A DNA stretch of 63,710 bases, filler included, from Perkinsus chesapeaki ATCC PRA-425 (lineage: Eukaryota > Protista > Perkinsozoa), in assembly GCA_013115145.1 (NCBI GenBank). It is 4 parts of 4 records of this genome, joined end to end, with 100 filler letters (N's around TTAATTAATTAA, not from the genome) between each part and the next. Parts side by side here need not be neighbours in the genome. Positions count along the whole stretch, not along the records: positions 1 to 28,201 come from JAAPAO010000481.1; positions 28,302 to 53,486 come from JAAPAO010000531.1; positions 53,587 to 62,103 come from JAAPAO010000971.1; 1 more part is not named here. One strand, 5' to 3'. Shown here in pieces: positions 683-56,257 of this stretch. The notes beneath the pieces are model-generated. The model saw only the letters and a list, made by a program, of their open reading frames with translations, searched no databases and was not told where the DNA came from. The position numbers and the translations under genes are program-made. How positions within the stretch are numbered: position 1 is the stretch's first letter; each line of letters begins with the position of its first letter.

Positions 683-1194
683 CCAGGTACCACTCCAGTG
701 GCAGCTATGGCTGCGCTGTATGAAGTTAACTCAGAGTACCGTACGGAGATGAAGAAGAAATACCAAGTAAGTAGTCACTCTGATCTGCAGCACCATGGCC
801 TGCTAGGCGACCTAGGCTATGAATAATAACCGCTGCTCAGGCTCTGATATTCCGCTGCGAGTATCCATGGTCTGGTGGAGCTCCACATGAAGTGAAGGAG
901 AACTTCGAGTTCAGCAGCGACGGTAGGCCGTATGAGTAAAACAGCCTGTTCTGAACAGCGCACCATACATTGAACACATCGTTCTTCGTTCGCCACTATG
1001 ACTTTCGTCCAGCGGATGAACACACGCTGCTCCTGCCTTCTCAGTTTCATATTGTGACACAAGCTCGAACGGGAGTCCCATCATATGATATGATATCCCA
1101 CATATCAACATCAGAACTGAACTGCCCTTCGCGCCAAGGCAGCAGCGTAGTATGTGGCGCAGTTGTTGCCAACAACTTGTTGGCGAACTTTTAA
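683..1194 (+). CDS. Hypothetical spliced gene fragment
   Basis: Exon-like blocks with GTAAGT/GTAGG donors and CAG acceptors (GTTPVAAMAALYEVNSEYRTEMKKKYQ; ALIFRCEYPWSGGAPHEVKENFEFSSD; ORF 970-1194); no family recognised. Confidence 0.3.
1162..1183. mobile_element. Putative hAT excision footprint (T=GTTGTTGG)
   Basis: GTTGTTG-CCAACAAC-TTGTTGG, exact T[1-7]+rc(T)+T[2-8]. Confidence 0.65.
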
Positions 1195-1627
1195 TGGAAG
1201 GTTTTTGAAGATATTTTTGATAGCGCAGTGCAACGTAGCGATAGTAAAAACCCGCGGGGAGGTGAGTGCATGCGTGCAGATCATTGTGATGCACGTACAG
1301 TACACCCAAACACAATACGCAATCGACGTTCATGAACCGCTTTGGGCTAAATACTGTTATATTGAGGCCAAACAAGGCGATTATGAGCCAGTTGTTTGTT
1401 AATTATTTTTTTTAATCCTAGGTAGGGAGATGTCTCTCGATGGCTAATAAACTGATTTACATAAATCGACAAGAGTATTGTCATAAATTATTACTCATAA
1501 TACCATCGTAGACATGGATAGCACCAATCTCTCAAACAATCATCGAATTATAACTTAATTGAGACTCGGTGCTCTCCCCTTCCCACACTCCCGTACCATG
1601 GGTTTTTATGTGCAGTTAAAAGTTCAG

Positions 1628-1747
1628 CCCGAAATTGATTTCCATATCCGCGAAATTGTGATCCCTATTCGCGAAATTGATGTCCTTATCCGCGAAAATG
1701 ATTTCCTTATTCGCGAAGTTGGTGGCCTTAAACGCGAAATAGATTTC
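1628..1747. repeat. Degenerate 21-bp minisatellite, about 5.7 copies
   Basis: Units like CGCGAAATTGATTTCCTTATC recur every 21 nt. Confidence 0.85.
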
Positions 1748-1826
1748 TGGAAGGTATAATTACTAGTCTAGTCCAGAAGGTTTAAGTTGAGCCAACATGC
1801 ATACTGCATAGAAAATTCATTGGTGA

Positions 1827-1848
1827 GACCCAAATTGGGTCACCCAAT
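1827..1848. mobile_element. Putative hAT excision footprint (T=GACCCAAT)
   Basis: GACCCAA-ATTGGGTC-ACCCAAT, exact. Confidence 0.65.
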
Positions 1849-2141
1849 TAAAGTCACTCCGAATCATGAGTATTGCCCCTCCCCATTCGAGTAGGATATT
1901 ACTCCAACTCAACAGCATATCAGTTTCAAAGACAATGAGGGTAGCGTGGCTCGATCAAGTTGTTGCAAAAACTGCTATGAAATGGATGATTTCTTCATTC
2001 AATCGGCCCGATCCCCGATTGAATCGGGACTATTCAAACTGGGTTGAAATTAAAGATCCTAGCGCAGAAATGAGAATTACACTTCGTGACGAGGTCGTGA
2101 CTATTTGATCGTCCTCTCGTCGAGCTTCAACAAATCCTATC

Positions 2142-3848
2142 CTATGGCTTGATACACGGCGACGACTTTATGCTGCTTCCAAAGTTAGGATATTGAGACT
2201 GGTTAGTTAGAATACCACATGCACCTAAAATATCTGAATCCGGCTTGAGTAATGACTCTCACGGTACGATGCTTGAATAGTACGGTAGCTACCTCGGGGA
2301 ATTGCAGCTCCAGTCCTCTCGATATATGCAAAACCTTTCATACCCCAAGATTTGCCCCAAGAGTTCATAATCTTCCAATATCTGAGACATACTCGTACAA
2401 GATAAAGGAGGAACGACAGTGTATTACGGTATTCCAGTTGTTGAAGTACCATATCCAACAATTGTGACTTGGTGGTTGATATTTCCGTCACCACAGGCCT
2501 TGGCTGAGAAATAGCTAATAACCAACGGGAACTGTGTGTGTATCCGCTAACCTGTTATGATCCCCGATTTGTATTTTCTTAATGCTGGCGCCCCAGCATG
2601 CAAGGTCACACCTACAGGCCCTTGTGCAACAGCATACATCATGAATAATTCATTTGCCGGACGCGTCAAATAGACATGTGCGATATCTCCTGCCTAAGAG
2701 TCGGGAATAATGTCCACAATCTTGCCGTCAACTAACGTCTTTGAAGATATGACCTTGATGCACTGCTTCTGTGGATTGGTAACTAAAGTCGTCTTGCATG
2801 TCCCGTCCTTAGCTACATAAGGGTAGCTAGAGGCCTTTACCATACCCTGCTTGCGAGCATAGTCATACACGTATTCACTACGTCCACCACCACAGCCGCT
2901 AAGTAAGGAAAAGTTCCCAACGTCTGGCAGTCGTTAAAGCTTACTTGTTCATTGTGCTGCAGTCGACTATCTGTTGAACCGAGAAGGGCACAACTTTAGA
3001 TATTCCACTTTGAATTTTGAATCGGCTTTCCATCACAGCTGAGATTGAGGAAAGGCTCAATCACATCCTTCCGGTAACCTTGCTGGCGTAAGTCAAAGAA
3101 GCGGTAATCTACTGCATTATTTATACTGCATACTATGCGGTGCACGTACATCTCAGCGCTTTATAGACCATAATGGTTGATCATGAGATATACGACTTAC
3201 CAACGCTTGAAATAGCATAACAGCAGCCACAGCTCCGTAGCATCGCTACTTGGTCTCTAACCGGTCCGAGGGCACCTGCTGCTTCCCAATCGACGTCGGT
3301 CGGTAAGTCGCCCACATTTGTCCCATTGGGGACATCTGACTGCCCTGCAAAAAAATGGAAACATATGCGTATGATGTGCCTCGTGGACATAGTGGTTACC
3401 CGAACCTTCGTTGTTGCCGATTTCCAGTCTTCTGTTAGCAGCTTGACTCATGCAAGTCATAACCTTATTGAACTGCTCTTGTGGGATGTCAGAGTGTTCG
3501 TTGATACCAACCTCATGCTCCACAGCACCTGAAGAGCCGAACACTAAGAGTCACCTTATTAACTAAGGCTTAGTAAGCCTTGAACTAAGCCTGGCTTAGT
3601 CCATGAACACAAACCTACCGTTCCTCCTAACCTCTTCAATTTCTTTCACACTTTGAGCGAAGGCATCCATGGCAGCTTGATACTCCTCTGGGGATTTGTA
3701 GACTTTATTATACCTCCACACCGCACACGCTAAAGTCGTTTATCATCATAAAAACTCACTTCTTCACAAATCCTTGGAAATCCAGTTCAGCATATTGGAC
3801 TAAAGCTAGGGAGGAGTAGGACAAGTAAAGATACCCGGTTAGTCTCAT
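2142..3848 (-). CDS. Papain-family (C1A) cysteine protease, copy 1, multi-exon, N-terminal leader plus I29-like prodomain
   Basis: MRLTGYLYLSYSSLALV..., FQGFVKKYNKVY, LPTDVDWEAAGALGPVRDQVAMLRSCGCCYAISS (catalytic Cys), NHQVTIVGYG (His), YWKIMNSWGKSWGMKGF (Asn), ends GACGIL...SSPCIKP*; GT-AG introns. Confidence 0.9.
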
Positions 3849-4915
3849 GGCTATCTAGATTGGAGCAAACAGACTCAGATATGTCAAAGAAGGTACCGAT
3901 CTGACATCGGCGATCTCTAATTGGCACGGTAACTGAAATGGTCTTGGGTTTCCGTGGCGCCAGTGCGATGATTGTCTTCGTGTAGAAGCATTGTGACGCC
4001 ACGTTTTTACTGTCAGAGTTTCAGGGCGCGACTTCTCGAGCCACATACGTACTGCGAGTAGCCTCCTTTTTCCCCATAGTACATAAGTGACTGTAAGCCT
4101 CCTGTACAACAATGGAACAATTCGTGGTGAATTATCAGCACCTCAATTGTGAGTGGAGCTTGCAGTTATACCAGAGCCTGTGCTGCTACTCCGTTGCCAA
4201 ATATTACATGCAGCGCATGACGACTTGTAATTGACATGCCATAGTCATGTTTGAGCCATCTTTGGGTGTTATTTTTCTTTAAGGTAAGCTCATATGAGCA
4301 CAACGATAGACATATGTGCTCACTCGAATAAGTTCTAACTACCGCTCATTAATTAGCAGTTGATTGCTGAAGAACTGCTCTGCGCCATACTGCGGACTAT
4401 ATATGACTCCATCCAATGTACTGGAAAGGGTGGATCTCCGGCCCGTGGTGTGCTCAAGTTGCTCTCCCCTTGAGTGTGAATCACTATTCCATTAGTTGAC
4501 AAAAAAATTTGCTTAAAAATTCGGTATAGTACTCTTTATTAACCAACACGTCACTATACCGTATAGTATAGTCTATACGCCGTCTTCCATCTTAAACATA
4601 GGCCGGAGTATTTACCGTCTGTGAAAACCATCGAAACGGAGACTTGGGAATGTTGGGTAGCACAGAACAAGGCCCACCTGCTTTCAGGTCGCCATTTACG
4701 CCATCAGTTATACACGCGTGCCTGGGTACGTACCCTGGTGCAACCATGACTTTCTGAAATATTCCAGAGTTGCTGCGTCTTCGAGCATGCTGTCGATGGT
4801 GCAACGGTGAAGGGCTTTTACATCTCTTTTGAAGTCTCATCGCTTCAATATTCTTTTCTGTTCCCTCGGTGCTCAAATTTATGTATTTCGGAAGCTCTCG
4901 GTAAATGTTCTCTGA

Positions 4916-4988
4916 TACTCCCAGCGGGGTTCGAACCCTCGACTTACGGCTCATAAGACCGTCGCTCTAACCACTGAGCTACAGGAGC
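4916..4988 (-). tRNA. tRNA-Ile: tRNA-Ile(TAT), intronless
   Basis: Reverse complement GCTCCTGTAGCTCAGTGGTTAGAGCGACGGTCTTATGAGCCGTAAGTCGAGGGTTCGAACCCCGCTGGGAGTA; loop CT-TAT-GA; several G-U pairs and one T-stem mismatch. Confidence 0.8.
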
Positions 4989-5330
4989 TATGAATTAAGC
5001 GGACTTCAATCCCACTTCGTCACTTAACTTTAGTCCAATAATACCGTTCGAGCATCAAACTATCGTGTCCCATCATGGGACTCCCATGTTCGCCACAAGC
5101 TTGTGCGCGTGTCTCAATAGCAAGCTATAAATTGACCGTATTGACTCCAAATATCTAATCTGGGGCTCCCGGAATTGTGCTAAGCTGTCAGATAATATTC
5201 AAGTATCGCTTTCCTCGTGTATAATTAGTCGATCAGGGGTATTGGGTGAGGCCTGTGGTGATGTAGTCCAAGGCGATACTTGAGTGATGGTCAGGGCTTC
5301 GCTTAGAGCGAGTTAGATGCACGCTTAGAG

Positions 5331-6685
5331 CAAGTCTTCCAAGACTTGCAAGGATCCGGGTCGGAAGGCCATCGCTCATGAGAGCAAGGCGTCGCATCAA
5401 GCTGCTGTTGCGAGGCATAACACTGCCTCTGGTGCTACTCTATCGGTCGTGAGGAAGATGCATGATGCAGCCATCAAAGCCTTCAACAATAAAAGTATCA
5501 GTGATGCTGCCAATGTTAAAAACTATATCAAGATATCTCTCTGGCTCGCTGCCAGAGAGATTCCTCACACAACGAACTACACAGCAGCTATAGAGTTCAT
5601 TTCATCTTTCAATCCGTCGATGCTACACTGGGCCCAAAGCCGGGCCGATAATGCCCACTATAGGTCTGCGTCAATATGCACTGAGTTTATCTCTCTAAGC
5701 AGTGATGTCTGCGACAAACGTACAAGCACGAAGCTCAAGGATGGGATTTTGAAGTTCAAGCGCTGGGCTGCCCAGCCTGGGCATTGATGATTGACGAAAC
5801 AAGTTTATATGGTCAAAGCGTGTTGGCCATTTTTGCCCGGTTTCTGACGGGCGAGGGCATTGACCAAGCTGAGGTTATTGAGGAGCTGGTGGTTTGCTGT
5901 CCTATTAAGAGCACTAAAGCGGCTGCCATAGAAGACTGTTTAGTCAGTGAGTTAGAAAGTAGGGGGATAAACCGTGAAATGTGGAGTATGCTAAGCGCTA
6001 TGTCATGTGACGGTGCGTCAGCTATGAAGTCAGATCAACAAGGGCTCTTTGGCAGATTGAAGAGACGTTTCAAGTTGGACACACTCCAGTTTCATTGTCG
6101 GGCACATCGTGTTAATTTGGTCTCGAAAACAGTTTTATCGACTGGTGACTTCCCTCAGCTTGAGGCTGTAATCGCCCTATCGCAAGAGTTATACACTTTC
6201 ATGGGCAAATCTGACAAAAAAATTGAACTATTCAAACAGATATCCATGGAGGAAATCAGTAATGATGCAGAAAGTAAGTTGCCCGTATCGGTCACTTCAA
6301 CACTTGCTCATCAGGTAATAAGTCTCTCGACAGATTCCTTAAATTAGTGGAGGCAGGGGGTACACGCTGGCTGTCGCATAATAATAGCCTAGAAAGACTG
6401 ATAAGAGTGTATGTCCGACTTGTCAAAGTACTCGACCGAATAGCAGAAGACTCTGACTTCGATATGACGGATAGGTCCCGTGCAGAATACTTGCTGGCGA
6501 AGATGCTAAGCAAGGACACCGTTCTCTCTCTAACACTCCTTTCGAAGGTCCTCTCAGAACTAGCCCTGATGACAAAAGCATTTCAGTCTCCATCGTGGAC
6601 GCTGGATCGCGCGGCGCGATCCAGCGGCGAGATCCGGGTCTTCCGAAGACCCGGAAGAGTGCACCGGGTGCACTCTTCCATTTGA
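5331..6685 (+). pseudogene. hAT-superfamily transposase (DUF4371/ZMYM/C17orf113-like), disrupted
   Basis: WLAAREIPHTTNY, WALMIDETS (first catalytic acidic motif), MSCDGASAM, FHCRAHRVNLVSK (CxxH), LKLVEAGGTRWLSH (RW), ALMTKAFQS; frame breaks near 5783 and 6345; ends in a palindrome cluster; no TIRs found. Confidence 0.85.
5762..5783. mobile_element. Putative hAT excision footprint inside the transposase (T=GCTGGGCA)
   Basis: GCTGGGC-TGCCCAGC-CTGGGCA; deleting 14 nt restores K-R-W-A-L-M-I-D-E-T-S in frame. Confidence 0.75.
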
Positions 6686-6783
6686 GCAATACCGCGGATA
6701 TTAGGCGATTCAAGATCACTTGGAGTGATTCGCTTTAAGGTGTATGTAGGCAGCGTACTTTGCAGTTCCATTTGTTGTTCTTC

Positions 6784-17332
<10,549 letters not shown>

Positions 17333-18018
17333 TTGTCTCGAGTTTTAAGAGATGCATGCAGGCAATCGACTGTTTCAATGAACCAGTGCTCGGTTTGTTG
17401 TGATATGTAACAGCTAGTGACATACGATACAACAGCCTCAGAACCATAAAACTGTAAAGGGTCTTCTTGCTAGACAAAGGAACGAACGGGAGATACGTCG
17501 AAAGTACCTTTATTGCCTTGGCAACCTAGATAATACCCGATCAATTTCGGATGACTCGGACCGGAGTGTCGAGCGAGTCGCTCGGAGCGACACGAGAGTG
17601 GCTGGTCAGATAAGCTAGTACGTGACACACTCGAGTTGCACTCCAATGCAATGTAGAGACGGTACAATTGCGCTTCGACCTTGGTGAACGTGTACACTTC
17701 ACACAACATTTGTATGCGTACACTTGGAAGGTCAAGGACGCATGCATTGCCTTGCTTTGAATGAAGCGGTTATTTGTAGGATACAAATTGCATCTGTGGG
17801 TGCAACAAGCAACAGTGGTGCTGCACCACTTTTTCGTTGAGCAAGAAGAGCTATATAGTTCGACTTGATATTAACCGCTTTCCCGACCGGGAAAACGCAG
17901 AGCTCAGGCCCAAACATGAGCAGCGCTCTCCCCACTGGTGAACGTGCATGATGAGTTATGAGGAGCATGGTTCGTGATAGACAATCGTTGATAGCTCAAT
18001 CTATGATTTATTACTTAC

Positions 18019-41864: not shown

Positions 41865-41948
41865 CGTACGACAACAGTAGAGACTAATACCACTCGCTGG
41901 GTAATTGACTACCAACTCAATAACAGCTCCTTAACAATGGACGGTATG

Positions 41949-43881
41949 TCATGGATGGTCACTGACACTTGAGGAGGAGGAGAAGGAGGACTCATCACTT
42001 GACTCGACATCATCGTCACTTGCATCCTCTTGGATAGACTGATCATCTAGTTGAAAGTGTCGGAAGCACTAGTGGACCTCAAGATTCTCACCGAGTAGCT
42101 CCATCCATTGTTGAATGACAGACTGAAACTCGTTAAATATAGTCTCTTTGGGATCGACCGCCGACACTAAAGGACGATGCAGCCATCGGACCACTACATA
42201 TCTTATCATTCATCACAAAGCAGTATTCCCCAAAGTTCGGCTTCCGCACTTGACATATTTCTTAGGGTCGTTTGAGCGATACTATTGATGAAATCAAATA
42301 TAAAAAACTGGTATCCAGTAACACTCCACCACCCTACAGTGTCGTGCTGCTTCTAGTGCCCTAGGGAAATCCCTGTCATTAAGATATCTTAGGAGCTGTG
42401 CCTTCATATTGAGTATCTTGCGACATTCCAATGAAGCATCTGTCAGCTGCTGCTGCCCACAGTTCCATCTGTTGCCATCTCCTCCACCTCGGCAACCCTT
42501 CTCTCTCTTGGACTGTATTGAAGCTGCAATACCTCAGGCGTTGCCCCTGGCGCAGTACTAGCCCGCGTGGATGCACCTAGGCTGGTGGAGCAGCGCTGCA
42601 GACGCACATTGCCTCACCGTTATCGTTGCTGTATGAGGGAGGAGCGGTCATGGCAAGGAACGACATGAGTGGTTGGATACCGTTCGTTACTAGGAGGTGA
42701 TGATATGGCAAAGCTATTGACTTTCACTTCCAACACAAACACCTGTCCCCCCTCTAGAAGACACCGAGAGTAATAGGAAGTTGACGACGTTTGGAGCATG
42801 TTAATATTTCCACAACGCAGCTGCCTTTTGACTGCCTACTGACCCTCGAAGGGCTCTACCAGTTCGATGGTCCCTGAACAGCCACAACAATGACCACTGA
42901 CCGCCGCGGCCACCATTGATACCGCAGTGGGAAGAAGCGCAGTATGCTCCCATGGGTGCAGGCCACTCCAGGTCGCAGCGACTCGAGTATCCGATCCTCA
43001 TTCGATTTGCATATTTCTCTTCTCAATAGTTCACGCTCTGCTCTACGCCGAGCAATGCATCTGAGTTCACCCTGTTTCTCGCGCGCCACTAAATTCCTAC
43101 TCCAGATCCCGCCACAGACTTTCCCGATCTTTAGGGAACAGGCTGGCAGTGTCGCTGTGGACCTGCTGGTATAACTTAAACCGGAGATTATACACCCCTT
43201 CTCACCCTCCACGGTAGGCCACGAGTGTCCCATATAACATCAATTACAGGATAGTGCTCATCATCCCCCTCGGCATCATCATCATCACATAGTACGACCT
43301 TCCCGTAGCCATCAGGAAGACTCAGGCTTACACTGTCCATCACGCTGGCCTGTAACGTATGAATCGAGCGCTTTATTGTTGGACCACCTGGACCAGCTCA
43401 AGCATGCGGTGAACTCTCCTCTGTGATCCTTTGCCTGCCTTTGTGAGCCGTGAAACTATAACAGGCCAGTGGTGCTGAGGGCGGCCGGCTGCCACTTTGC
43501 CTATTACACATGGAATCCAGCCCCGCTCCTATGGAAGCTAAACTAGCCTTCAAATCTTCATACTGTGGCTTAGTGTTATCGCCGCCTTTGGGAGCTGTTG
43601 ATGAGCCCTGATGCACTGAGGATTGGTCGTCTTCCTGCTCACCTCTAGCTTGGTGTAGGCCCTTGTCCTCCGACCTTGCTGGCAAAACGAATACCATTTC
43701 CACGCCCTCAATTCGAGATAGCAGTGGTGTGCTGACTGAGCTGTCGCCGAGGCATGCCTACCACATTCGATGATATGGTACGGGGAGATATTGCTACCTT
43801 ATCATCAGCTAACAAGGAAAGGAACCGGTCCCTTGATACCAGCTGTACTACTCGCTTCTGTGATGGAGGGGTATACATCAT
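41949..43881 (-). CDS. Hypothetical multi-exon protein with acidic/Ser-rich C-terminus
   Basis: Exon-like blocks with GT/AG borders (MYTPPSQKRVVQLVSRDRFLSLLADDK; GYGKVVLCDDDD; YVVVRWLHRPLV; DDQSIQEDASDDDVESS...HP*). Confidence 0.4.
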
Positions 43882-44513
43882 AACGTCATAACTAATATAC
43901 ACTAGCACTTTAAGGATGATTAAAACAATACACTTAATGGATGCAAGCGTTAGGAGTATCAATCATGCTGTCTTAACGTCTGCTTAGAACTACTTCCCCC
44001 TACAGAGGGCTTCCGACGGAATCTGCCTCTGTTTTCTCACAGCTGGCACCTCACGAAAATAACGAAAAAACCTCGCTGGCAGGAGGGTGACGTCCAGCGT
44101 GGTCGACAAGACCGCCGCAGAGGTTATATGGTACAGGATGTCAAAAACGGCTAAGTCAAAATAATCTTATCACTCATAGTCGGTGGAGTAGCGCTGAGCC
44201 CAATAGTGATAGAGACACGCTGAGGATGCAGAAGGCAGTATCCATGATAGCAGGGTCACCATCAGTCATAAAGTCAATTGGTTTCAGCATGGCCTTAATG
44301 ATATGGCTTATTAGTCTACTTGTACTGGGCTGGTTTAGTATTACTGTTACTATGGCAAATCGTAATACTGTGAGACGCCATAGTGCACGAATTGATCCAC
44401 CTACCATTACAATAGGAGAACTAGAAAGGCACTAACAAGATGATAACTAAACGCTGGCAAAGGCATAAAGAAACTATCATCATTCTGATTGACTGTTTAT
44501 CATTCTGGTTTCT

Positions 44514-45564
44514 TTAGGCACGCTGTTGTTTCTGCTGCTTTGACTTTTCAATCCCCTCATCAAGGGACTAAACAGGCCCTTCCTTATTCCCCTATTTATT
44601 ATTATTACCTTGCATAACTCCTCTACTACATCATCCTCCAGCATAACAGGAGTACCATCGGCCTTAAGCAAGCATACTTCCACATTTTTACCGCTAGGGT
44701 CCACAACTTCCAGTAGAGCTCGAACTGCCATGTTGATAGTGTCCTGCTCGGCCATATCCTCCTTGTAGTTCTTTTCAAGGTAGTCGCTCACTATGATGAG
44801 ATAACATCCACAATACCTCCGAAGGCCCGTTGGCACTACCTGTCTTCGAGTTCCTTCCAATAGCAGCAGCCTTCCAGGAGTTGAAGGTGCCAGAAGGGTC
44901 GGTTTGGTATCTAGAAATGGGCTAATACTGCGATATAGATATTGATAAATATGTACAGCTGAGGCTTCTTGTGCTCGTTCTGTCCAATAACCAAAGTCGA
45001 TATACCGAAAGGGCGGGCACCTATCCAATCCATGCTACTAGTTGATTCTTGCTTACTACTGCCTACCTCCCTTATAGGTGTATTGCTGCTGGACACCAGC
45101 AATGTATCGAGCAACATAGTCAACAGTTGGCTTATCCTCAACATTAAGACGATAACTTTGGCATTCAACACGTGCCTTGTTGGCTAGGACCTACCACTAC
45201 ATTACTCCCGAACTGTGGTGCAGGAGCCCCGGTACTACCCTAGCATCAGCGTTTAGACCAGCAAAGGCCAACATAACGTTCTGATCGATTTTAAGTATCT
45301 TTCGGACAGTCCTAAAATACGTATCATTCAGCCTCCTTCCCTTATATCTTCACCTTGGGTCTTGAAGCTTAGGAATGGCCTTTCTCTCTACTGCTAATAC
45401 AGCAACATCTTTACCTCTAACACCAACAGCAGTGGTGCCCTTCCTTACAGCCTCCAAAGCATATCTAATATAATAATGCCTACATTCCCCTACTAGACTT
45501 ACTCGACTTGAAATAGATGACCATCTGGCGAGAACACTGTGATAGCACGATCGTAACCGGACAT
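44514..45564 (-). CDS. PSMA7: 20S proteasome subunit alpha type-7 (alpha4), multi-exon
   Basis: [19 protein letters not shown]|[39 protein letters not shown]|[24 protein letters not shown]; RPFGISTL; [10 protein letters not shown]...AVRALLEVV. Confidence 0.95.
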
Positions 45565-46067
45565 GGTTTTGAGGTAGAAGAAGCAATAGAGTAGTAAAAA
45601 CTCTAATGACTTCAAGTTAGTCTAGGATGCCGCCATTCAAAGGCCTTATATAGTTATGTATCTTTATACAGCTATCGTTACGCGTTTCGAGCTTACTATC
45701 AACTACAAATGTACTTATCTGCAACTTCATCACTTCCATTTCGATATCCCCTTCCATCCACCGCCCAGGCACAATTCCGTAGTGCAGTTGCAAGAAAAGC
45801 GCATGATTCGTGCCAATTGCATTTCCCCCGCTGTTTGAAATGCTCGTCATCCGTTTGTCTCTGTTGTGCTTACTATTTAAGGGCACCACCTCTTCCCTTA
45901 AAGTGAGCCTTTCCTTCAACTTCTCCGCTGTAATTTATTATATTGTTCAGAAAAAGTTTGGGTCCCTAACCAAGTCGGTTCGTTCAAGACTAGGTAGCCG
46001 TGGAGACAGCAAGGTAGCACCCTCTTATTAGCTGCTATCTACTGTGGTTATCTAGCGTCATGGTCCC

Positions 46068-49000
46068 GTGCCACAAGACTGCACCTTAATGTACATGGCC
46101 TCTCTAACCAGTGGTACGATATATTACACAATCAAACTGGATGAGAGCCTTACAAGAATTAATACATTCACGAAAGGAAGGCAAGTTGCTGTTGATTATC
46201 TTATCTATGAATTGCATCTCCTTAGTGATGGGGGTTTGATGATAGGGAACCATCCCGATGTCATCGTGCTGCCCAAGAAGCCTAAAACCTGCAAGGATGC
46301 CCTCGAGACCGTTCTCAAGATGGGTGTCCAAGTGGCAGCGAACAGAGCCAATACTCCCTCCGATTGCGATGGCGGTCGACCTCTGGTAACGTCCGAAGTT
46401 GCTATGAAGCGAGTTGAGGATCGAATTCGCTCTACTGAGCCTCATCCTAATCTTGGCTGGTATGAACCTACTGATGCTCAAGGCTTGTGCTATATTATAT
46501 CGGACCTTTACAACGAAATTGAGGAAGTGATTCTACGGAGGAGAAGCTCTGTTCGTTTGGTAAGTATAATGCTTCAACCTCCTTTTACAGTATCTATCAG
46601 GGACCTCAACTGAAATGCGAGCTCACTGCCTCTGGAGACAGCGGCGATTTCTACCTATCATCGACCCCTAACGACGGCATCATGGCCTTCCGAAAAGATT
46701 CGTACGTCAGCCTCTTTGAGCCCCTATCGAACGAAATATCTTTCTTCAGTACATGGATTATACCTACAGCCAATCAGCAGGCTAATGGAGAAACTGAAAC
46801 ACAGACATGCGAAGAGCATCTCAGCAATATGTTGAGAAGAGCGATGGCGAACACAGCAACGATGAATCCTGCCTCCTTCTGGGGATGCCAGCCCTCAGAG
46901 AGATCGAGGACTGTGAAGGAGATAAGCCTCATGTTACCCGATAAGAAAAAATCTTCAAATAAGTTCCGTGGCTTGGCATGCTCGGTCCCAGTTCTCGATA
47001 ATCTATTCAGTGATGCGATGAAACAGCACACAGCCATTACACTAGTAAGCGTGTTCAGCTCTAGCAGTAGGGCGGCGCATAAGTTCTTACTGTAGGAGCT
47101 GGATACCAAAACCTGCGAATTTACTGCTAAGATAGCAGATCCGATGAGCTCACGAGGTCCACAAACTTTACGGTTGCAGTACAATGCAAAAGAGGGCGGC
47201 TTGTACATGATTGGGGACGGAGGGTGAGATGAGTCGAAGAGGTTGCGTATCTCAGTATTTGCTTTCATACCCGTTTATAGGATGTTTCGGTTAGATCAAC
47301 AGGATCTTGGCTGTCCCTTTCAGTATGAGGCTCTACGTCCCTCGTACCGGTTTGACACATATAACGCTGGGACAGGATGCATTCCACAGAGAACTACCGA
47401 TGCCAAACTTTAAGGATTGTAAAGATGGTATAACTAGTTTGCTACGAATAGGGGCTCATTTGTCCCACTCTACAAGCATAGCTGCGGATAATTTAGAAGC
47501 AATAGATCAACTTGTTCACGGTCTGGGCACGTCTAAACATTTGGATGGCATCAATGTGCTGCTCATCCCAGAAATACCTATTTACACTATGGCACTGTTT
47601 GATAAAATGAAAGGCATTAATAGAGGAGGCCTCGCCTCTATAGATGAAGTAAGAGAGAGTTAGCTAACAATTACCTAAGATCAATTTTGACAACTCAGAG
47701 TGCATCCTGCAGCCTACAAGAATCGTATGTAACGCATCTTGGTGATTTATACCTTATCCACCTTCATGCGAATGAGGACGCTCGACCAGTTGAGATTTCA
47801 ACAGCCTACATACCGAAGGACAAAAGACCGACACAGTAGGAACATTCTTTCGGAAGACAACGGATCCTACGAGGCTGTTTTTGGCCGTCCTCGACGGAAT
47901 CTTTTTCTCTTTCAGGGAGGCTAATATGAAGGTGAACACTTCTGTAGTTGGAAATTGTCCGTGTAAAGCATCGACGATCTTACCTCGAGGGTCCTGTCAA
48001 AATAGGCTGGCTACTACGTTATATGCCTGTTGGGGTTGCCTTGTGCACCAAAGCACTGATGTACATGACAGGATGCTCTATAAAGAGCTGGAAGAGTTCG
48101 CTCATCAACAAATCGTTAATGAAGCGAAGAGCCGCTGGAGCCCCATTGATTGGATGTCTCCCCAACCGAGGGCATATCGTATTGTTAAACATGGTTTAAC
48201 AACTGATATCCTCCACGAACTCGTAGGCAGTGTTGCTGGAAATGAAGAAAACGATTTCGGACGACTAAGAGAGAAGAGCACCATTGTAGGAAGAGACACG
48301 AACCTTAGGGGCTACTGTTGTATTCGATAGGACAGAGAAAGGCGGATGAAGCTATCAAGCAATCCTGGGTATGCTTTGTGCGAACTCCGCCTCAAAGATG
48401 AAAAGGATGATGATATTGACAGACTTCACCGACTGCTCCTAGACCACTCCTTTCGTATACTACGCATCACCAGCCCGAAGTAGGAAGGGGGGCACTACTT
48501 CACATGGAGCGTGAAGCGGACCTTGCCATCTTACCGGCAGGTATGGTCAGGGGGACGTTAGAAGTTTAGAGAAGCATTTGGCCGGTAAGGGATTGAGTAG
48601 ATTCTACGGGAAAGTTGAAGAGCCACAAACCAAGAGCACCGAAATATTATGCAAGCTGGCATTTATACATTACCTCGAGGCGATTCGCCTTTTACCGGAA
48701 GCTAAAAAATATCTGGATGCGCTACCAGGCCAGAGTCCGGGGTTCACTAATATTGAGGGCATCGAGATACATGAGGGTGTGTATTATACGGGGAGTTCAT
48801 CAGCTTTAGGAAGACTGTTGGTGGTACTAGGCCAGGTGGCACGCCAAGTTCATATGTAGGAACATCACTCTTGCTGTTACTATATTATGCTCAACTGGTA
48901 GAGACGAGGATTATGCGGTACCTAAAAGCTCACCGAGAGAGTCGCGCAGCAGTCCTCCCTCACCCTCATCGCGAAGCCGAAGCAAGAGGACTACATTGTA

Positions 49001-52000
49001 CGTGTTATTCGCCCATGAACAATCCCTAGCTCTAGTTGACAGATACTCCTCGCGAAGCATACCCTAATAATGATGTTATGAGATAATCAGTTGTTGTTGT
49101 TGTTGTTGTTGTGATGCTCAGGCTTGTGTTGTGAATTGAGGGATGCAAACTGACAAACTGATCCAGCCACAAATACAATAAAAACAGGACGGAATACATG
49201 AGGGCATTTAATGCTCACCCCTAACGCGCCATAGAAAAGGCAACACAAATCATACGGATCATACGTTCCGACTAGAGGTCGAGAGTGCTAGCAGCAGTTA
49301 CGCGGAAGGCAGTGTATTTACAACTATTCTTACGTACCATCACATGTGTGGTGGAACGCTGTGCCCTTGCAAAGGCTGGGTTGCTGCTAGATGCGTGGAG
49401 ATTCCGGTCACTTTGTTGGCATCAGAAATCGAAACAGTTCGAAAACTCCATGGGAGAGGATATCGAGGACAGCATGCGACGCACTTGACAGCTTTACACT
49501 TCCCATATGTCATACTGTCATCAATCATGTATACTGTTATTGCTCCTGATGCTGTTCGGTAACACCACAGCCCCATCGCACAAACCCACTAAAGTAAGCC
49601 AAGCACATCGGGCGGAGTAAAGGTTCGAATCAGCCTCCTTGTGATGTCGTTGAACCTTGAAAGATTACTCTTGTTCGGCGACATTTTGTGTTCTCTTGTT
49701 CAGAAGGACCATGCACGACGCATTAAGAAGAAGGTGAGCTCTCTTGACTTCTCTGCTCATTAAAGACGCCAGTGGCTGACCGAGAACATCATCGCAACTC
49801 TCAGGGATCGGACTTGTACTTGCCATGCGGTATCCGTTCACACGGGAGATCAGCTCCTGCCTATTACTTGAGGCTCGCCTCGGACAGGAAGCAGATTGAC
49901 GTCTTTCGGCGAGATGAGTAGGTGTCTGACTACCTTGGCGGGCTTGGCAACGAACATGCCGAGATTATCGAGCAACCTTGCGCAGGTTGCGATTGATTCC
50001 GAATAGGCAGTCTACCGTCAAAGTTGTCGGCGATTTGTCTTTATTTACAACAAAGGAATCAACTTCGAGCTGCAAAGAAGCTTTGAAGCTCTACTTGGAG
50101 AAGGGTGTGCATCTCTTGGATGACACGAAACCTGGACCGCTTCATCTTCGTAAAGAAACAAACGATGAAAAAATCGCACGCGTTGCTACTATAATAGAAG
50201 GTTTGCCGTGTGATGATGGCATTTACGAAGTGTTTGAAAAAGGATTTATTACCGACCTGCTCGATGCATTATTTGCTAGAGCCAGCAAGGCAGTTTTGAA
50301 AGAAGGAAAGGCGATCACCGCGGTAACCTACATAGCTTGGACCCGTCTTGTGGCGATTAAGTCTTATTTTACGGCTTAGGTGATTGATGAGGAATCTTGC
50401 ACCCTCCAATATAAGTACAATGAGTTAATATGTGACGGCCTAGAGAAGTCTTGCGAATCGAATGCCGAGTATACCTTAAGCTGCGACAAGGAAACAGGAT
50501 CCATAAAAGACCTTAGCAATGGCGTGTACGCTCATTAGATGACCAAGGACACCTTACCTGTTTTATATCAGACTCGCACTGTTCACGATTCCCCCTCCCT
50601 TGATGGAGTACCAGACACTAGGATTTAGCCACGTCTCGAAAAGACCCGAAGATCGGTCATGTATCGACACGCTGGGCCATTTCTTGACTGGTCGAAGCCA
50701 AGATATGAATCCCAGCATAAGGAGTAGTGAAATCATATCTACTCTGGATGGGTTGGTCAAAGATGATGATAACACAGTGAACATCAAGGTCCTCCTGGAA
50801 CTAGAATCGAGTTTGGTTGAACTGTGGAGCGCAGCTACCAGCGATATAGCCAGTTCTCAGGGAAAATACGGGTATTGGATGAGACATGTAGGAGAGCCGC
50901 TGCCACTTCACTCTGAAAAAATTTGATAGACGATGGCAATTTCAGGATGCCCGTTGCAGTGCTCGAGTACCAGTTACCGAGAAAACAGGACGTCTTGGTA
51001 AACACTATGAGCTAATGCTCACAAGGGACGGATCGGTCAAGGCCCACTTTTTCACGTCGAGTGACTCCAACTTCATTGCACCGTAATGACATCCACACCA
51101 GCTCTTTCCGCCGGTTTGGCTCTGCAAGGTTCAGTTTAGTGGAGACCATTTCTGGTTTAGTTACATCGAGCAGTCGTGGAGACCTGCTGAACGACATGCT
51201 TCGGAGCAGCCGCGCGCGGGGGTCGATTGTCGAGATAGACTTCTAAGTATAATCAAGAACGCTTATGATGCAGATGTTAAGAAGCGGTACATGTTCAAGC
51301 GTCTCATAGAAAGACAACTGGTAATTGAAAGTTCACAAGCTTGGAAAGCTTTGTCATCCTGGGACACTCCTCGGGTGTACGAGCTGCAACCTGACGACGT
51401 AGCCAGCAAGATTATCATTGGAAGGATGACATCCCTTGAGCAGAACGTGACTAAGCGCGAAAAGTTAGCGCTACCACAGCGCGACTTGAGCCAGCTTGTA
51501 AGTCCATCGAATCCAGATTCTTGTTTGACTGACCTGTCTTGTTTAGAGTAAAGATTCGGTATGCAAGTTCAAGGTGAAAAATACTCTGGCAGGATACTTC
51601 GAACTAGGGATTGACAATCTCTTCCAGATAAGCTACGTCAGCAATCGCACGTAAACTCCCCCTCCCCTTGTGGATGCATCTCTTACATCTCTGCTATGCC
51701 AGGAAAATCTTTCATCGACCGCGGTATCTCATGGCTGAGCTACAGCAACGCTTAGTCGTGCCTCGAATCGATATCAGTAGATCTTCAACCTCGGAGATGT
51801 GCAAACATGTATGTGTTGCGTACTTGAACGCTGCAACCATCTCCCCATCTACACCCGCGTCAATCATCCCCATTGCTGAGTGGAAAACAATCAAAAGAAC
51901 TGGCCAATACCTTGAGTCGAATGATAAACGTTTTATTGAAGCGATGAGAAGAATATTTGATGTTGCCCAGGAAGTAATAACTTGCACTGATGAGTAGATC

Positions 52001-53208
52001 ATGTGTTTTCTCTCAGGTAGAGCACATCGAAGTGGCAGATTACTCTGAGCCCTCAGACTCGCTGTCTCTAAAATAAGCTGTTTGTTGATTTACTCTCATC
52101 ACACCAACTGCTGTGCCGCGTTCACCATGTATCCTACCAAATGAGGTTGTCCGAAAAGCCTTGTCGTGTTCGTGATGGGGGAGTGGTATCCTGATGACAT
52201 CAAGGTGAAAGTTGGTATCAATTACCCTTAGTGTCCGTCCATGAAATACTGCGTCATAGCGCTGAGCATGTTAGCCCAGATCAACGGGCTGCAAGCCTTG
52301 AAGGTAAGATGCGGAACTCGTACTGTCACGTCCACTAGATAACGCCGCACTGAACGAATTGTCATCGCTGACACCCAAGATCTACTTGAAGCGAAATTCG
52401 ACAGATATGAGCGTCTAGATTTTGTAGTTCGGGCTATAGGAACCCGCCGAATCTTATTTAGGATGACACTCTTGTGTCTTTCACTTCTCACAACACGGTT
52501 CATGTTGGAAGCGCAGTATGTTTCCTTGTCTCAGAGGTTTTTCGGACGAGGAGCGAAAAAGCAAGTAAGAGACTTGAAGTTACATATTAACCCAGGAAAC
52601 AAGCTGGGCTCTCACCGTGGTGGAAAATGTTCTTACTCAGAGCACCGCCGATAGCAAATGCTCGCTTCGATATTCACAAGGAAACAACTCGTATTACGTT
52701 GAGCTCTTAGGAGACATGACGGATGCCGCAGTCCTCAGAAAAAACGAGTAAGGCATCAGTTATACCAATCATAGCTTATATTCATTCTTACAACAACCAA
52801 TGACTGAGAACGATTATTTGCAGGTGGAGACTGGTCAGGACCGCCACCTCGAGTTTTACGATGTCCCTCGATCGTGCACCGGTTAAATATGCATCTTGCA
52901 AACAAGCCATGGAAGACTACCTACGCAAACACATGGCTCCCCCCGCGAGACGAACCAGCAAGACAGGGTCGATGCGGAGAAAACCGGGCCTCAACATTCC
53001 CGAGCTGGATAGCGCCAACAAAAACACCAAGTCATTTGATATCAAAGCTGTAAACGAGGCTCTTGAGAAAATCCTTAGCGAAGGGTTCTCTAATTCTGAA
53101 AAGCAATATAACGAGGAATGGACAAAAGTTAAAACAGTAAGCAGAAACAGCTGCAGGTCCTTACCTGGACTGTCCTCGGTAGTCATCATGCATCTTCACA
53201 ATACGTAA
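46068..53208 (+). CDS. Large unidentified intron-fragmented coding region (one or more genes)
   Basis: A run of + strand ORFs of 85-180 aa with globular-looking composition, separated by short GT-AG gaps; no motif recognised. Confidence 0.4.
49090..49110. repeat. (GTT)7 microsatellite
   Basis: Read directly. Confidence 0.95.
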
Positions 53209-53713
53209 AGATTATAGGCATAAGTCGGAAATGTATTCCTATAATAAAGTTGGTAGAATATTTGGAACTATCCTTTCCCTATGACGCATCGTACACTTTA
53301 CCGTTGCACTGGACTCGACCAGCGACTGCGTGTGTGTGTGAGTTTATAGTCCAACGTCGAAATTGGCTTAGTTAGACTATCCATTCTCTGTGCAGCTTCC
53401 GAGCGAGAGTTTAAATAAACGGTAAACGAGGTTTGCCGAAGTAAAACGAGGGGGCTCCGCTTCGCCCTGTGCACGCGTGCGAGGCCNNNNNNNNNNNNNN
53501 NNNNNNNNNNNNNNNNNNNNNNNNNNNNNNTTAATTAATTAANNNNNNNNNNNNNNNNNNNNNNNNNNNNNNNNNNNNNNNNNNNNACGTGCTGTCCGTG
53601 CACGCGTGCCGCTTATTGACGACCACAACTAAACTTGTCTACTTCGTAAACCTCACTTATATAAGGAGCAATGGAACGTGACTGCGTATTGCTATACAGC
53701 TTTGATCAATAAA

Positions 53714-54049
53714 ATGCGCGTCTCTGTCCTCTGCATGCTTATCGCGGTTGCTGTAGCACAGACAACAACCCAGCAGGCTACCACGTCGGCTGCAACCACT
53801 ACTGCCGCGGCGCAGCTGATCACTACTACTGTCGGTTCGATTACAACGACCACAACTGCACCAGCAGCCACGACAACCGCCGCTATTACCACTACCGAAG
53901 AGACCACGATTGCCGCTACTGTTATCACCGGAGTCGCTGACACCACCACTGCTGCGGTTACTACATCTGGTCACGAGCATCATTCCAGTGCTGCGCCCGT
54001 TAAGTATGCGCTGGCTGTAGCGGTAACGCTTACGATGACTCTTGTTTAA
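53714..54049 (+). CDS. Small intronless Thr/Ala-rich mucin-like surface protein, probably GPI-anchored
   Basis: Signal MRVSVLCMLIAVAVA; TTT/AATT-rich body; small-residue SSAA site then hydrophobic tail YALAVAVTLTMTLV*. Confidence 0.8.
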   Translation: MRVSVLCMLIAVAVAQTTTQQATTSAATTTAAAQLITTTVGSITTTTTAPAATTTAAITTTEETTIAATVITGVADTTTAAVTTSGHEHHSSAAPVKYALAVAVTLTMTLV

Positions 54050-54538
54050 ATGAAGAGATCACAAAGCCCAATGAAGCAGCTCGTCACATGCTGCATGTGT
54101 GAATAGAAAGTACTCTCATTATGATATAACTGCCTTTTGTTAGCTTTGGGAGTTGAGCTCGGGAGACAAATCGTGCATTGAATTCAAGCATCTTTTCTAG
54201 ACGATATCTCGCTGAGTCGTCTCGAGTTGGTGCTTTGTACGCAGGGTCGATAGTATAAAACGATTGCAGAAACAGTCACTGTAGTCAGCACAATGCTTCG
54301 TGTAGTGCAACACTGCCGGCTTGGAAAGGAGCAACCACCGACGCACGGCCCATGGGTCTGGCTCCGACTATCCTAAGGGCTACTGTTCAACTCAAATGCA
54401 ACTGAGCACTTTTCGGTGGGCAGCGCATCACGCTGAGCATGACTTCTTAAGTAGGAAGATACAGCTGCCGTATGCATACTATCGACTCTGGGTGTTCGAG
54501 AGACTTCACTTCGATTCCGCAGTGCTGTGTTAGATTGT

Positions 54539-56220
54539 ATGGAGCGGCGTGCGCTCAAAGAGCACCGACTGCTACTTCTAGGCTGGGGAGCAGCCGCAGC
54601 AGAAGCTTTGAAGGCCATAAGAGAAATGACTACCTCCTGTAGCGTTGATCCCGCTGCCGACGAAGAGGCTGGAAACTGGCGAAAAGTTGAATGCCTAGTT
54701 GTAACACATGAGAAACAGAGTGTCGATGTAGACTTATCAGTAATGTGCGCGGAAATTGGATTTGAGTGTACGCCTACCAACTTGCGCGGAAGTATTTGCC
54801 GTTTGATTAGGCATCGTTCTGAAAGATGACAAGCATGACGAGATGCTCTTAGACGCGGCGCGAGATTATGGCCCACATCTTCTGATTTGCGTGAGCTATA
54901 GAAGGCGCATAAGGTCGGAAGTATTAGAAGTAAGTAGAGCAGTACTTTACTAAAGCGCACAAAGTTCGCCAATGGGAAGTGTACCCGGGCAGAAATACGC
55001 CCCGAGTTCCGATGTTTGCGATGATATGCTGCTCAGTTATGCCCAGGAAAATGTGTCAATTTCCATCCATCTTTGCTTCCAAAACATCGCGGATGCTTTA
55101 GCAGTTTTCATGCTATAATGGATGGAGACACTCACACAGGCGTCACTTGTCACCACATTCAGTAAGCCGGCCATATCGATCGATTACTCAACCGACTTGT
55201 CTTTCAGACAGAAGTACGACTCTGGCAACATCATAGACCAGGTTACCATCGAAGTTGGCCCGTCCGATACCTCACAGAGCCTTTACCGCAAGCTCCTTCC
55301 TATCACTAAAGAATGTATTCACCGAGTGCTCAAACAGTAAACAGTAGGCCCGGTCTTTTCCTCGCTGATCGACTACCATGTAGGGCAGATTTGCGATAGA
55401 GTATCCAATTCTGCAACATTGACTGTTCACAGTCTCAGGCGTTTTAGACCGTCATTGGAATGATCACGGCCGCCTATACACGTCAGTGGGAAATATGCGA
55501 AGTTATGATATCTATGAGGTGTCTCGCGGCAAGATTCTCGCCAGTTTTTAAATATCCTTACCCTGATAGCAAACCGCGGGAAATGTGTTCGAGAATGTTA
55601 CGCCAAAACTGAATTCCAACTATTTGCCACACTTCCCCTATCCAGAGTGCTTCCTGCTATCCCTGTTCGAAACCGTGCGCAACCTGTAATTCTTGAAGAT
55701 ACTTCGCCGAGGGTCTCACGTTCCCGGCTGGTATTCAACAAGATGCCTCTCGAAGCAGTTATCATCAACGAAGATTACCTTACGAAGGAGTAGCTCAACA
55801 AGATTGGAGTGAGGAAAAGATCGAACGTTTCATACGGTGAGTTGAGCACACCAATGTCATTTTGAACTGTATGGCATCACAACACTCCTCCGTCAGTTAT
55901 CCGCGCGAACTGTGTTGCATTAGTTTCTGATGCATCGTTCATGATGTTCGTCGATTTGTTGCCATCCAATGGGCGGCGTTGTGTGCGGAAGATTGTTTTT
56001 CTTGCTACAGTATGCCTGCACACACCTCTGTCGCCTGGCCAGAATAACAACTTCCCGTGTCATTCCGAAACTCCTCAGGGCTATGCAATACCCACCACTA
56101 GAAGGTGCCAGGTTTCCTTTGGCAAATGGGACAGTAGTTATCTGTGACACTTGGCAAGATTTCCTCCGCATTCGAGATTTGTGGAACCAATCATGCACAC
56201 ACAAGTTTGTGACGCCGTGA
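54539..56220 (+). CDS. N10-formyl-THF-dependent formyltransferase (Formyl_trans_N fold), multi-exon; start may lie further upstream
   Basis: RLLLLGWGAAAAEALKAI; CLVVTH; LLICVSYRRRIRSEVLE; CVNFHPSLLPKHRGCFSSFHAIMDGDTHTGVTCHHI; YDSGNIIDQ...DTSQSLYRKL; RRLPYEG...WSEEKIERFIR|AMQYPPLEGARF. Confidence 0.85.
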
Positions 56221-56235
56221 CGTGCCAAACGGTTC

Positions 56236-56257
56236 ATGTAAAGTTTACATTGTAAAC
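56236..56257. mobile_element. Putative hAT excision footprint (T=ATGTAAAC)
   Basis: ATGTAAA-GTTTACAT-TGTAAAC, exact, 16 nt after the formyltransferase stop. Confidence 0.65.

What the first reader, a model, noticed from the sequence alone, without database searches (positions are those of the whole stretch)
1162..56257. A stereotyped 22-bp '7-8-7' scar recurs across the window: candidate hAT hairpin-excision footprints sealed by 8-nt microhomology
Seen: nine exact copies of T[1-7]+revcomp(T)+T[2-8], each with a different 8-mer T: 1162 GTTGTTGG, 1827 GACCCAAT, 5762 GCTGGGCA, 22478 GGTGTGCC, 24038 GAGCCCAG, 25743 GTATGCCC, 26157 TGTGGTCC, 27417 GGCACAAG, 56236 ATGTAAAC. Four more are near-exact (19554, 22654, 26319 with one mismatch; 25312 with a 2-nt insertion). 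Fourteen of the 22 bases are determined by T, so the chance expectation at uniform composition is about 63,710 x 4^-14, roughly 0.0002 per window. Known: hAT elements make 8-bp TSDs, nick 1 nt into the flank and leave hairpins, so opened ends carry palindromes centred on the complement of the base next to the element. Inference: opening both hairpins 8 nt from the tip gives complementary 8-nt overhangs whose annealing yields exactly this structure, a net +14 bp. As I recall them, plant Ac/Ds footprints usually keep only 1-2 central bases, so a dominant +14 product would imply a distinctive, probably microhomology-driven repair route and heavy past cut-and-paste activity.
Basis: partly seen in the sequence, partly recalled or inferred. 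Interest (0 to 1): 0.9.

Follow-up and report, generated by a model that had tools for sequence, protein, structure and literature searches.

The report
Uniform transposon excision scars in Perkinsus
The non-coding DNA of this mollusc-parasite genome is dotted with 22-base double palindromes of one fixed geometry that add 14 bases to the original sequence, likely the healed wounds left when hAT-type jumping genes cut themselves out, so the DNA would keep a countable record of past jumps and of how this protist mends hairpin-capped breaks.

Summary
Confirmed and extended. Ten of the 14 lie unchanged in contigs of two sequencing studies. They are insertions: the scar at 5762 shifts the frame of a hAT transposase remnant by 14 nt where three Perkinsus homologues read through, and 22478 is missing from two paralogues. 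Five variant joints imply the same 8-bp duplication (four exactly) with palindromic arms of 6-26 nt, and one 36-bp chain exactly fits re-insertion into an older scar. Best reading: hAT-type excision, hairpins opened about 8 or more nt from the tip, ends annealed through the duplicated target. Not shown: a filled element with TIRs and TSD, which transposase did it, and which enzymes repair. Loss of classical end joining is not supported: P. marinus is scored Ku70/Ku80/Lig4-positive in print. The scan noted the same scar before in other genomes, Perkinsus among them (five notes). A known kind of footprint in an unusually uniform, dense form.

The parts
1162..1183 (.). exact 7-8-7 scar, T=GTTGTTGG
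1827..1848 (.). exact scar, T=GACCCAAT
   Evidence: spanned by contigs of both studies
2000..2028 (.). variant footprint, exact implied 8-bp duplication CAATCGGG; left addition 6 nt, right 8 nt, 1 filler base
3554..3600 (.). compound footprint cluster (2-mismatch scar at 3554 plus variant with centres 3573/3592); paralogous contigs are 40-43 nt shorter here
   Evidence: (tables 5, 5c)
4553..4579 (.). variant footprint, exact implied duplication ACTATACG, joined at a 2-nt internal microhomology
5350..6613 (+). broken hAT-family transposase remnant (first two catalytic Asp motifs, CxxH, RW; 3' part missing)
   Evidence: tblastn to P0001/P0002/P0003, 41-70% identity; relatives carry PF05699; cluster name
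5762..5783 (.). exact scar inside the transposase remnant, T=GCTGGGCA; shifts the reading frame by 14 nt
6600..6679 (.). three 1-nt-centred palindromes (arms 13, 11, 13) with no shared duplication; transposase homology ends at the first centre (6613); last two overlap by 3 nt
7269..7334 (.). variant footprint, exact implied duplication GCTGTCAT; left addition 26 nt, right 8-9 nt, 1-nt microhomology
7398..7433 (.). two 1-nt-centred palindromes joined at a 2-nt overlap, no 8-bp duplication (a 4-bp one fits)
17808..17829 (.). scar with one mismatch, T=AGCACCAC
19554..19575 (.). scar with one mismatch (an overlapping 2-mismatch reading starts at 19561)
22478..22499 (.). exact scar, T=GGTGTGCC; two in-window paralogues lack 13-14 nt here
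22654..22675 (.). scar with one mismatch, T=AGCGCACC
24038..24059 (.). exact scar, T=GAGCCCAG
   Evidence: table 7, run X3, place 24189
24787..24822 (.). five-unit chain (holds the exact scar at 24801); two-round footprint fits with 1 mismatch, 14-bp tandem duplication with 2
25312..25335 (.). scar with a 2-nt insertion or two mismatches, T=CTCCACAT, in a compound cluster
25743..25764 (.). exact scar, T=GTATGCCC
25803..25838 (.). five-unit chain; exact fit to a second insertion and excision in register on the central 8-mer of an older scar (T=CCTAGGAG)
   Evidence: 0 mismatches, next models 2
26157..26178 (.). exact scar, T=TGTGGTCC
26319..26340 (.). scar with one mismatch, T=CTCACAGT
26448..26469 (.). 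scar with one mismatch, T=GAGTCAGG
26884..26935 (.). variant footprint, exact implied duplication GTAGTCTC; left addition 8 nt, right 12 nt (19 with one mismatch, read from the sequence)
27417..27438 (.). exact scar, T=GGCACAAG
56236..56257 (.). exact scar, T=ATGTAAAC
938..54099 (.). further decayed scars with two mismatches starting at 938, 1480, 3896, 9980, 17773 and 54078 (22 bp each)
   Evidence: control mean for two mismatches 0.1 per window

Best explanation
The 22-bp motifs are 14-nt gains at unrelated 8-bp sites in a Perkinsus genome, likely the footprints left when hAT-type transposons excised and the two hairpinned flanks were rejoined through their 8-bp target duplication. Shown: the motif, its fixed size, its inserted nature at three sites, and variants that imply the same duplication. 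Inferred steps: (1) an element inserts and duplicates T; (2) the transposase nicks one base into each flank and seals hairpins, so each palindrome centre is the complement of the base that faced the element; (3) a host nuclease opens each hairpin on the 3' side about 8 or more nt from the tip (6-26 nt seen in variants); (4) the two 3' tails carry rc(T) and T, anneal over 8 bp, any flaps are trimmed, and the two 7-nt gaps are filled, giving T[1-7]+rc(T)+T[2-8] whatever the exact opening point; (5) when the duplication is absent or not used, long arms are kept and joined at 0-3 nt overlaps. The enzymes are untested; a tip-distal opener of the Mre11-Rad50 type acting in place of an Artemis/Pso2-type tip cutter is my guess.
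For: Sharp k=8 peak, 14 exact against 0 in controls. Only 1-nt-centred palindromes are in excess; this centring on the complement of the adjacent base is the published Ac/Ds signature (PMC5873905 Discussion). Scar 5762 offsets the transposase frame by 14 nt against P0001, P0002 and P0003, the last reading RWALMID without a break. Paralogues lack 13-14 nt at 22478; one contig shows a single related 8-mer at 24184. Five joints with other spacings imply an 8-bp duplication, four exactly, against none in 20 controls. The chain at 25803 fits two rounds of excision with 0 mismatches. Among footprints that keep both halves of T, middle lengths 4-7 and 9-12 are empty and lengths 0-3 are near background (21 v 16.7, 12 v 5.3, 2 v 2.2, 2 v 0.6), length 8 has 14 v 0. 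A hAT transposase remnant is in the window; 9 of 14 long relatives tested pass the PF05699 cut-off. hAT elements make 8-bp duplications and flank hairpins (PMC10368747, PMC6900584 passages). 26 of 28 loci are in the first 28-kb piece, none within the AAA-ATPase gene region 10060-17330 and none in the 25-kb ORF-dense piece, as expected for a frameshifting gain.
Against: No filled element with TIRs and an 8-bp duplication was found in the window or in metagenome contigs, and no whole genome is held. The remnant is a victim of a scar, not shown to be the agent; it and its three closest relatives hit no hAT Pfam model directly. Target preference is weak (first base avoids T, 5 of 52 symmetrised) and is not the Hermes nTnnnnAn pattern. 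The paralogue gap at 22478 is 13 nt in the MAFFT alignment, not 14. Footprints with deletions cannot be seen by these scans, so 'dominant' holds only among those that keep both halves of T; a small excess of 1-nt middles (12 v 5.3) remains. Three variants have one side ending at 8-9 nt, so a preferred opening near 8-9 nt is not excluded. P. marinus is scored as having Ku70, Ku80 and Lig4, so the route is not explained by loss of classical end joining there. The read sets differ from the window by 0-1 letters per listed unique piece and may be the same strain, and are contigs, not raw reads.
Confidence: 0.84

Rival explanations
1. Same repair route, different agent: a Mutator-like (Muta1-type) or other 8-bp-duplicating transposase that also hairpins the flank.
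For: Muta1 forms flank hairpins in vitro (PMC5499845 passages). No filled allele ties the scars to a family. Merlin-related ORFs (8-9 bp duplications) exist in P. marinus (PMC8101967 passages).
Against: Muta1 excision in yeast was more than 90% precise when a duplication was present. No 9-bp class here (k=9: 0 exact), whereas MULE duplications commonly vary in length (recalled). The only DNA transposase I identified in the window is hAT. Dada elements of P. marinus make 6-7 bp duplications at fixed RNA-gene targets (PMC3706591 passages).
Confidence: 0.09
2. Transposon-independent replication template switching or synthesis-dependent end joining that inserts a short inverted copy between two direct copies.
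For: A four-point template switch can write the same string, centres included (reasoning). No element was caught at a scar site.
Against: Nothing in that process fixes the size: of core lengths 4-9 with equal gaps of 0-3 nt, only core 6 with 1-nt gaps is populated outside short-period repeats (18 hits). Variants with arms of 6-26 nt still imply an 8-bp direct duplication. The second centre of the 25803 chain is the complement of what a repeated switch or a 14-bp slippage gives.
Confidence: 0.05
3. Assembly, amplification or library artefact.
For: The window is a gapped draft of four pieces joined by linkers; only contigs, not raw reads, could be laid.
Against: Ten of 14 exact scars are spanned without gaps by contigs of two studies; decayed copies with one and two mismatches exist; scars avoid ORF-dense DNA.
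Confidence: 0.01

Closest known systems
Ac/Ds (hAT) excision footprints in S. cerevisiae, Arabidopsis and Candida albicans (PMC5873905; Discussion read whole, other passages)
   Same: Palindromic additions centred on the complement of the base next to the element; microhomology at the joint in 85-100% (Arabidopsis), 88-89% (yeast), 51% (Candida); yeast arms up to 20 nt.
   Different: Those spectra are heterogeneous and mostly short (Candida: 28 types among 128, longest addition 3 nt). Here one product that uses the whole 8-bp duplication dominates the visible spectrum and has accumulated naturally at about one per 0.8 kb of the scar-bearing DNA.
Hermes (hAT) transposition chemistry (PMC10368747, PMC6900584; passages)
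   Same: 8-bp duplication; non-transferred strand cut first, hairpin on the flank.
   Different: Hermes prefers nTnnnnAn targets; the 26 sites here show only a weak G/C bias at the first base. No footprint spectrum of this form in the passages seen.
Muta1 (MULE) excision (PMC5499845; abstract and passages)
   Same: Flank hairpins; repair at the donor site depends on the presence of the duplication.
   Different: Muta1 repair restores a single T (over 90% precise); here the visible product is +14 with an inverted T. Precise events would be invisible here.
Ascot-1 footprints in Ascobolus and Tam3 footprints in Antirrhinum (recalled; papers not held; titles only in reference lists)
   Same: Non-random, palindromic, hairpin-derived footprints with biased processing.
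   Different: Could not be read, so whether a T[1-7]+rc(T)+T[2-8] class occurs among their products is unchecked.

Membership tests
hAT excision footprint | 8-bp target duplication | tested here: met
   k=8 only: 14 exact, k=7 and 9-13 none; variants imply 8 bp
hAT excision footprint | Palindromes centred on the complement of the base that faced the element | tested here: met
   32 of 36 centres in 18 unconstrained cores; only 1-nt loops in excess
hAT excision footprint | Derived from a single-T empty site | tested here: met
   5762, 22478 (13-14 nt), 24184 (one contig)
hAT excision footprint | Filled allele T-element-T with hAT TIRs at the same site | tested here: inconclusive
   none in the window or among the loose ends shown (tables cut); no genome or other strains available
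hAT excision footprint | hAT transposase present in the host | tested here: met
   remnant 5350-6613, about 70% identical to P0003, whose cluster mate is named a hAT C-terminal dimerisation domain protein of P. olseni; 9 of 14 long relatives pass PF05699
hAT transposase (remnant 5350-6613) | DDE triad, CxxH and RW motifs, C-terminal dimerisation domain | tested here: inconclusive
   two Asp motifs, CxxH and RW align with PF05699-bearing relatives (motif roles recalled); third acidic residue and dimerisation domain are lost by truncation; no direct Pfam or PDB hit
Hermes/hobo-type target preference | nTnnnnAn target consensus | tested here: not met
   T at position 2 in 19 of 52 symmetrised sites only
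MULE (Muta1-type) footprint | Flank hairpin, long duplication, mostly precise excision | tested here: inconclusive
   hairpin geometry shared; no 9-bp class; precise events are invisible without orthologues
Dada | 6-7 bp duplication at fixed small-RNA gene targets | tested here: not met
   8-mers are all different and none lies in the two tRNA genes called
Repair in a lineage without classical end joining | Loss of Ku70, Ku80, Lig4 | not testable with these tools
   no proteome for this organism; P. marinus is scored 3 of 3 present in PMC6635534 Table S1, which argues against

The most novel reading that the evidence does not exclude
Perkinsus opens transposase-made hairpins far from the tip and anneals them through the whole target duplication as its default route, despite holding Ku and Lig4. 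Most hAT excisions are thereby stamped with one self-identifying 22-bp mark, which gives a genome-wide, datable census of excisions, of target sites of vanished elements and of in-register re-insertion, something other genomes allow only through strain comparison.
Probability: 0.45. Interest if true: 0.72.

Novelty: new variant of a known kind. Interest (0 to 1): 0.5.

Why it matters
Excision normally leaves short, mixed marks that cannot be recognised without an empty allele, so historic excision rates are hard to count. A mark that names its own target can be counted and aged from one assembly: here 26 loci in about 21 kb with no intact element left, which points to heavy past cut-and-paste traffic. 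It also reads out hairpin repair in an alveolate for which I found no account in the papers searched: long 3' tails and full use of an 8-bp homology, a lead on which nucleases open hairpins outside animals, plants and yeasts, and on what repair outcomes to expect in genome editing of this group. Because +14 shifts reading frames, the scars also mark DNA free of coding constraint.

Tried and rejected
Whole-genome scan: no genome held. Search for a filled element: duplications of 4-10 bp with inverted ends up to 9 kb apart gave only chance-level or repeat-derived pairs (output cut in the middle); the ends of multi-copy repeats at 1216-1758, 22825-22869, 24454 and 25156 have no partner TIR or 8-9 bp duplication. 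Relatives of P0003 in metagenome contigs: 504 pattern matches, none confirmed. Direct Pfam and PDB searches of the remnant: nothing significant. Protein atlas: not answered, not repeated. Strain polymorphism: the five runs found (four laid) look like one genotype, so no empty or filled orthologue could be seen. A 6-bp class (2 exact hits, 1087/1092 and 3568/3573) was considered; one lies in the compound cluster at 3554 and no separate family is claimed. Short Ac-type footprints: of the 12 hits with a 1-nt middle, three (19081, 19209, 19211) lie in sequence whose paralogue looks the same length by eye and two overlap other footprints (2006, 17801), so no class is claimed. Two-round models do not fit 19547/19554 or 3554 (8 or more mismatches). 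Loss of classical end joining as the cause: not supported. Papers not held: Yu 2004, Colot 1998, Lazarow 2012, Huefner 2011, Hickman 2018.
Full report
Setting. The window is four pieces (1-28201, 28302-53486, 53587-62103, 62204-63710) joined by N-flanked linkers, with two further N gaps. No whole genome is held. Proteins of P. marinus, P. chesapeaki and P. olseni are the closest relatives of a gene remnant in the window, at 41-70% identity over the aligned stretches, so the organism is very likely a Perkinsus species; the species was not determined.

Observation. A scan for T[1..k-1]+rc(T)+T[2..k] gives, at k=8, 14 exact hits, 7 with one mismatch and 11 with two, against 0.0, 0.0 and 0.1 in 10 Markov controls. 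Exact hits at k=5, 6, 7 and 9-13 are 1, 2, 0 and 0. The 32 hits form 28 loci. Palindromes with arms of 7 or more and a single central base number 56 against about 5 expected; other loop sizes from 0 to 8 are near background. Leaving the edge letters free, 18 cores are found, all with a 6-nt core and 1-nt gaps, and 32 of their 36 centres are the complement of the facing target base; two exceptions belong to a nested chain and two are single substitutions.

Not an artefact. Five public DNA runs of two studies hold the region; four were laid on 17300-28200 and two on 850-7600. The runs are contigs, look like a single genotype, and one may be the source of the assembly, so they exclude an assembly error but give no strain polymorphism.

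The scars are gains. The scar at 5762 lies in a transposase remnant. Three homologues align in frame 1 up to 5769 and in frame 3 from 5778, with the same residue placed 14 nt apart; P0003 reads RWALMID through the site. At 22478 two paralogous stretches of the window lack 14 and 13 nt by BLAST and 13 nt each by MAFFT. At 24184 one contig of run X3 leaves the window at 24189 and continues with a single related 8-mer and the downstream flank (table 7). At the compound cluster 3554-3600 paralogous contigs are 40-43 nt shorter.

Footprint spectrum. Pairing all 1-nt-centred palindromes within 60 bp gives 22 pairs at distance 7 (control 0.05). Five pairs at other distances outside the nested chains imply the same 8-bp word on both sides, four exactly and one with one mismatch, against none in 20 controls. 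Their palindromic additions are 6 and 8, 9 and 9, up to 8 and 7 with a 2-nt overlap, 26 and 9 with a 1-nt overlap, and 8 and 12 (19 with one mismatch). Pairs without a shared 8-mer keep arms of 9-14 nt, two of them joined at 2-3 nt overlaps (7406/7423, 6644/6666); transposase homology ends at the centre of the palindrome at 6613, so its right arm is the added copy. Among joints that keep both halves of T, middle length 8 has 14 hits against 0, lengths 4-7 and 9-12 none, and lengths 0-3 are near background with a small excess at 1 (12 v 5.3). Joints with deletions and precise excisions cannot be seen. The 36-bp chain at 25803 matches a second round in register on the central 8-mer with 0 mismatches (14-bp slippage: 2); the chain at 24787 matches a second round on the right 8-mer with 1 mismatch (slippage: 2), which is less decisive.

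Distribution. 26 of 28 loci are in the first piece and 2 in the third; the 25-kb ORF-dense second piece and the AAA-ATPase gene region 10060-17330 have none. That is about one per 0.8 kb of the remaining first piece. A +14 gain shifts frames, so purifying selection is the simple reading (inference); insertion bias is not excluded.

Agent. The remnant at 5350-6613 is hAT: of 14 long relatives scanned, 10 hit PF05699 and 9 pass its cut-off, and the cluster mate of its closest relative is named a hAT C-terminal dimerisation domain protein. The remnant itself and P0001-P0003 hit no hAT model directly. It was struck by a scar and is not shown to have made them. No filled element was found. The 26 target sites examined show only a weak bias and not the Hermes pattern.

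Mechanism. hAT transposases make 8-bp duplications and leave hairpins on the flanks (PMC10368747 and PMC6900584, passages); the one-base offset of the nick is recalled, and matches the published centring of Ac/Ds palindromes (PMC5873905). The left hairpin reads T[1-7]+rc(T)+rc(left flank); the right one is its mirror. Opened on the 3' side 8 or more nt from the tip, the two tails expose rc(T) and T. They anneal over exactly 8 bp; trimming and filling give the scar whatever the opening point. Enzymes are untested. In PMC6635534 Table S1 (two rows and the head rows seen) P. marinus is scored positive for Ku70, Ku80, Lig4, MRE11, RAD50, XPF and the POLA/POLQ group and negative for RAD52; Artemis is not scored. 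Loss of classical end joining is therefore not the explanation in that species; a missing tip-cutting nuclease is an untested guess.

Known and new. Palindromic, microhomology-joined footprints are established for Ac/Ds in plants and yeasts, with yeast arms up to 20 nt (PMC5873905, Discussion read whole). Muta1 also hairpins its flanks but excises mostly precisely (PMC5499845, passages). Ten full-text searches found no description of this fixed product or of footprints in Perkinsus, but five primary papers were not held and may list it as a minor class; PMC3706591, PMC8101967 and PMC8062965 were seen as passages only. The scan itself recorded the same scar earlier in other genomes, three notes naming Perkinsus or a Perkinsus-like protist; my reading was fixed before I saw them, and they are unchecked notes, not support. 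What this window adds is the frameshift proof in a hAT gene, the long-armed variants and the exact two-round chain.

Verdict. A real feature, most likely hAT excision footprints sealed through the whole target duplication (0.84); a new variant of a known kind; interest 0.5.

Noticed in passing
window 2100-3960 (-), 20330-22130 (+), 19070-19357: Two paralogous intron-containing genes and a fragment that look like papain-family cysteine proteases by motifs read by eye (recalled, not scanned); 76-95% identical. The first copy carries footprints at 3554-3600 and 3896.
   Followed up: partly
window 10060-17330: AAA-ATPase gene, possibly bromodomain-bearing (motifs read by eye), with a 24-bp and a 12-bp tandem array in an intron; free of scars.
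   Followed up: no
window 1216-1758: Multi-copy repeat (high contig depth, mixed flanks behind 1758) with 5.6 copies of a 21-bp unit near its right end; no TIR partner or duplication found. It holds the decayed scar at 1480.
   Followed up: partly
window about 24216-24454: High-copy repeat whose right end at 24454 has mixed flanks in all four runs' best contigs shown for three of them; no partner end in the window.
   Followed up: partly
window 18578-18910, 22380-22540, 23274-23612: Three diverged paralogous stretches (about 62-65% identity) of unknown nature; they supplied the empty allele for scar 22478.
   Followed up: partly
window 70-143 and 4916-4988: tRNA-Thr(CGT), with a decayed tandem copy 171 bp on, and tRNA-Ile(TAT) about 360 bp upstream of the transposase remnant.
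   Followed up: no
window 59294-59317: A perfect 24-bp palindrome with no central base, the only long even one; a different geometry from the scars.
   Followed up: no
window 7398-7433: The two palindromes also fit a 4-bp duplication (ATTC), which could point to a second hairpin-forming superfamily; a single case.
   Followed up: no
window 62204-63710: LTR-retrotransposon-like fragment with a zinc-knuckle and an aspartic-protease motif, read by eye from the sequence.
   Followed up: no
window 44480-45600 (-): Proteasome subunit gene (PF00227).
   Followed up: no
window 28202-28301, 53487-53586, 62104-62203: Identical 100-bp linkers (44 N, a 12-bp six-frame-stop word, 44 N) join separate pieces; they are not biological.
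   Followed up: yes
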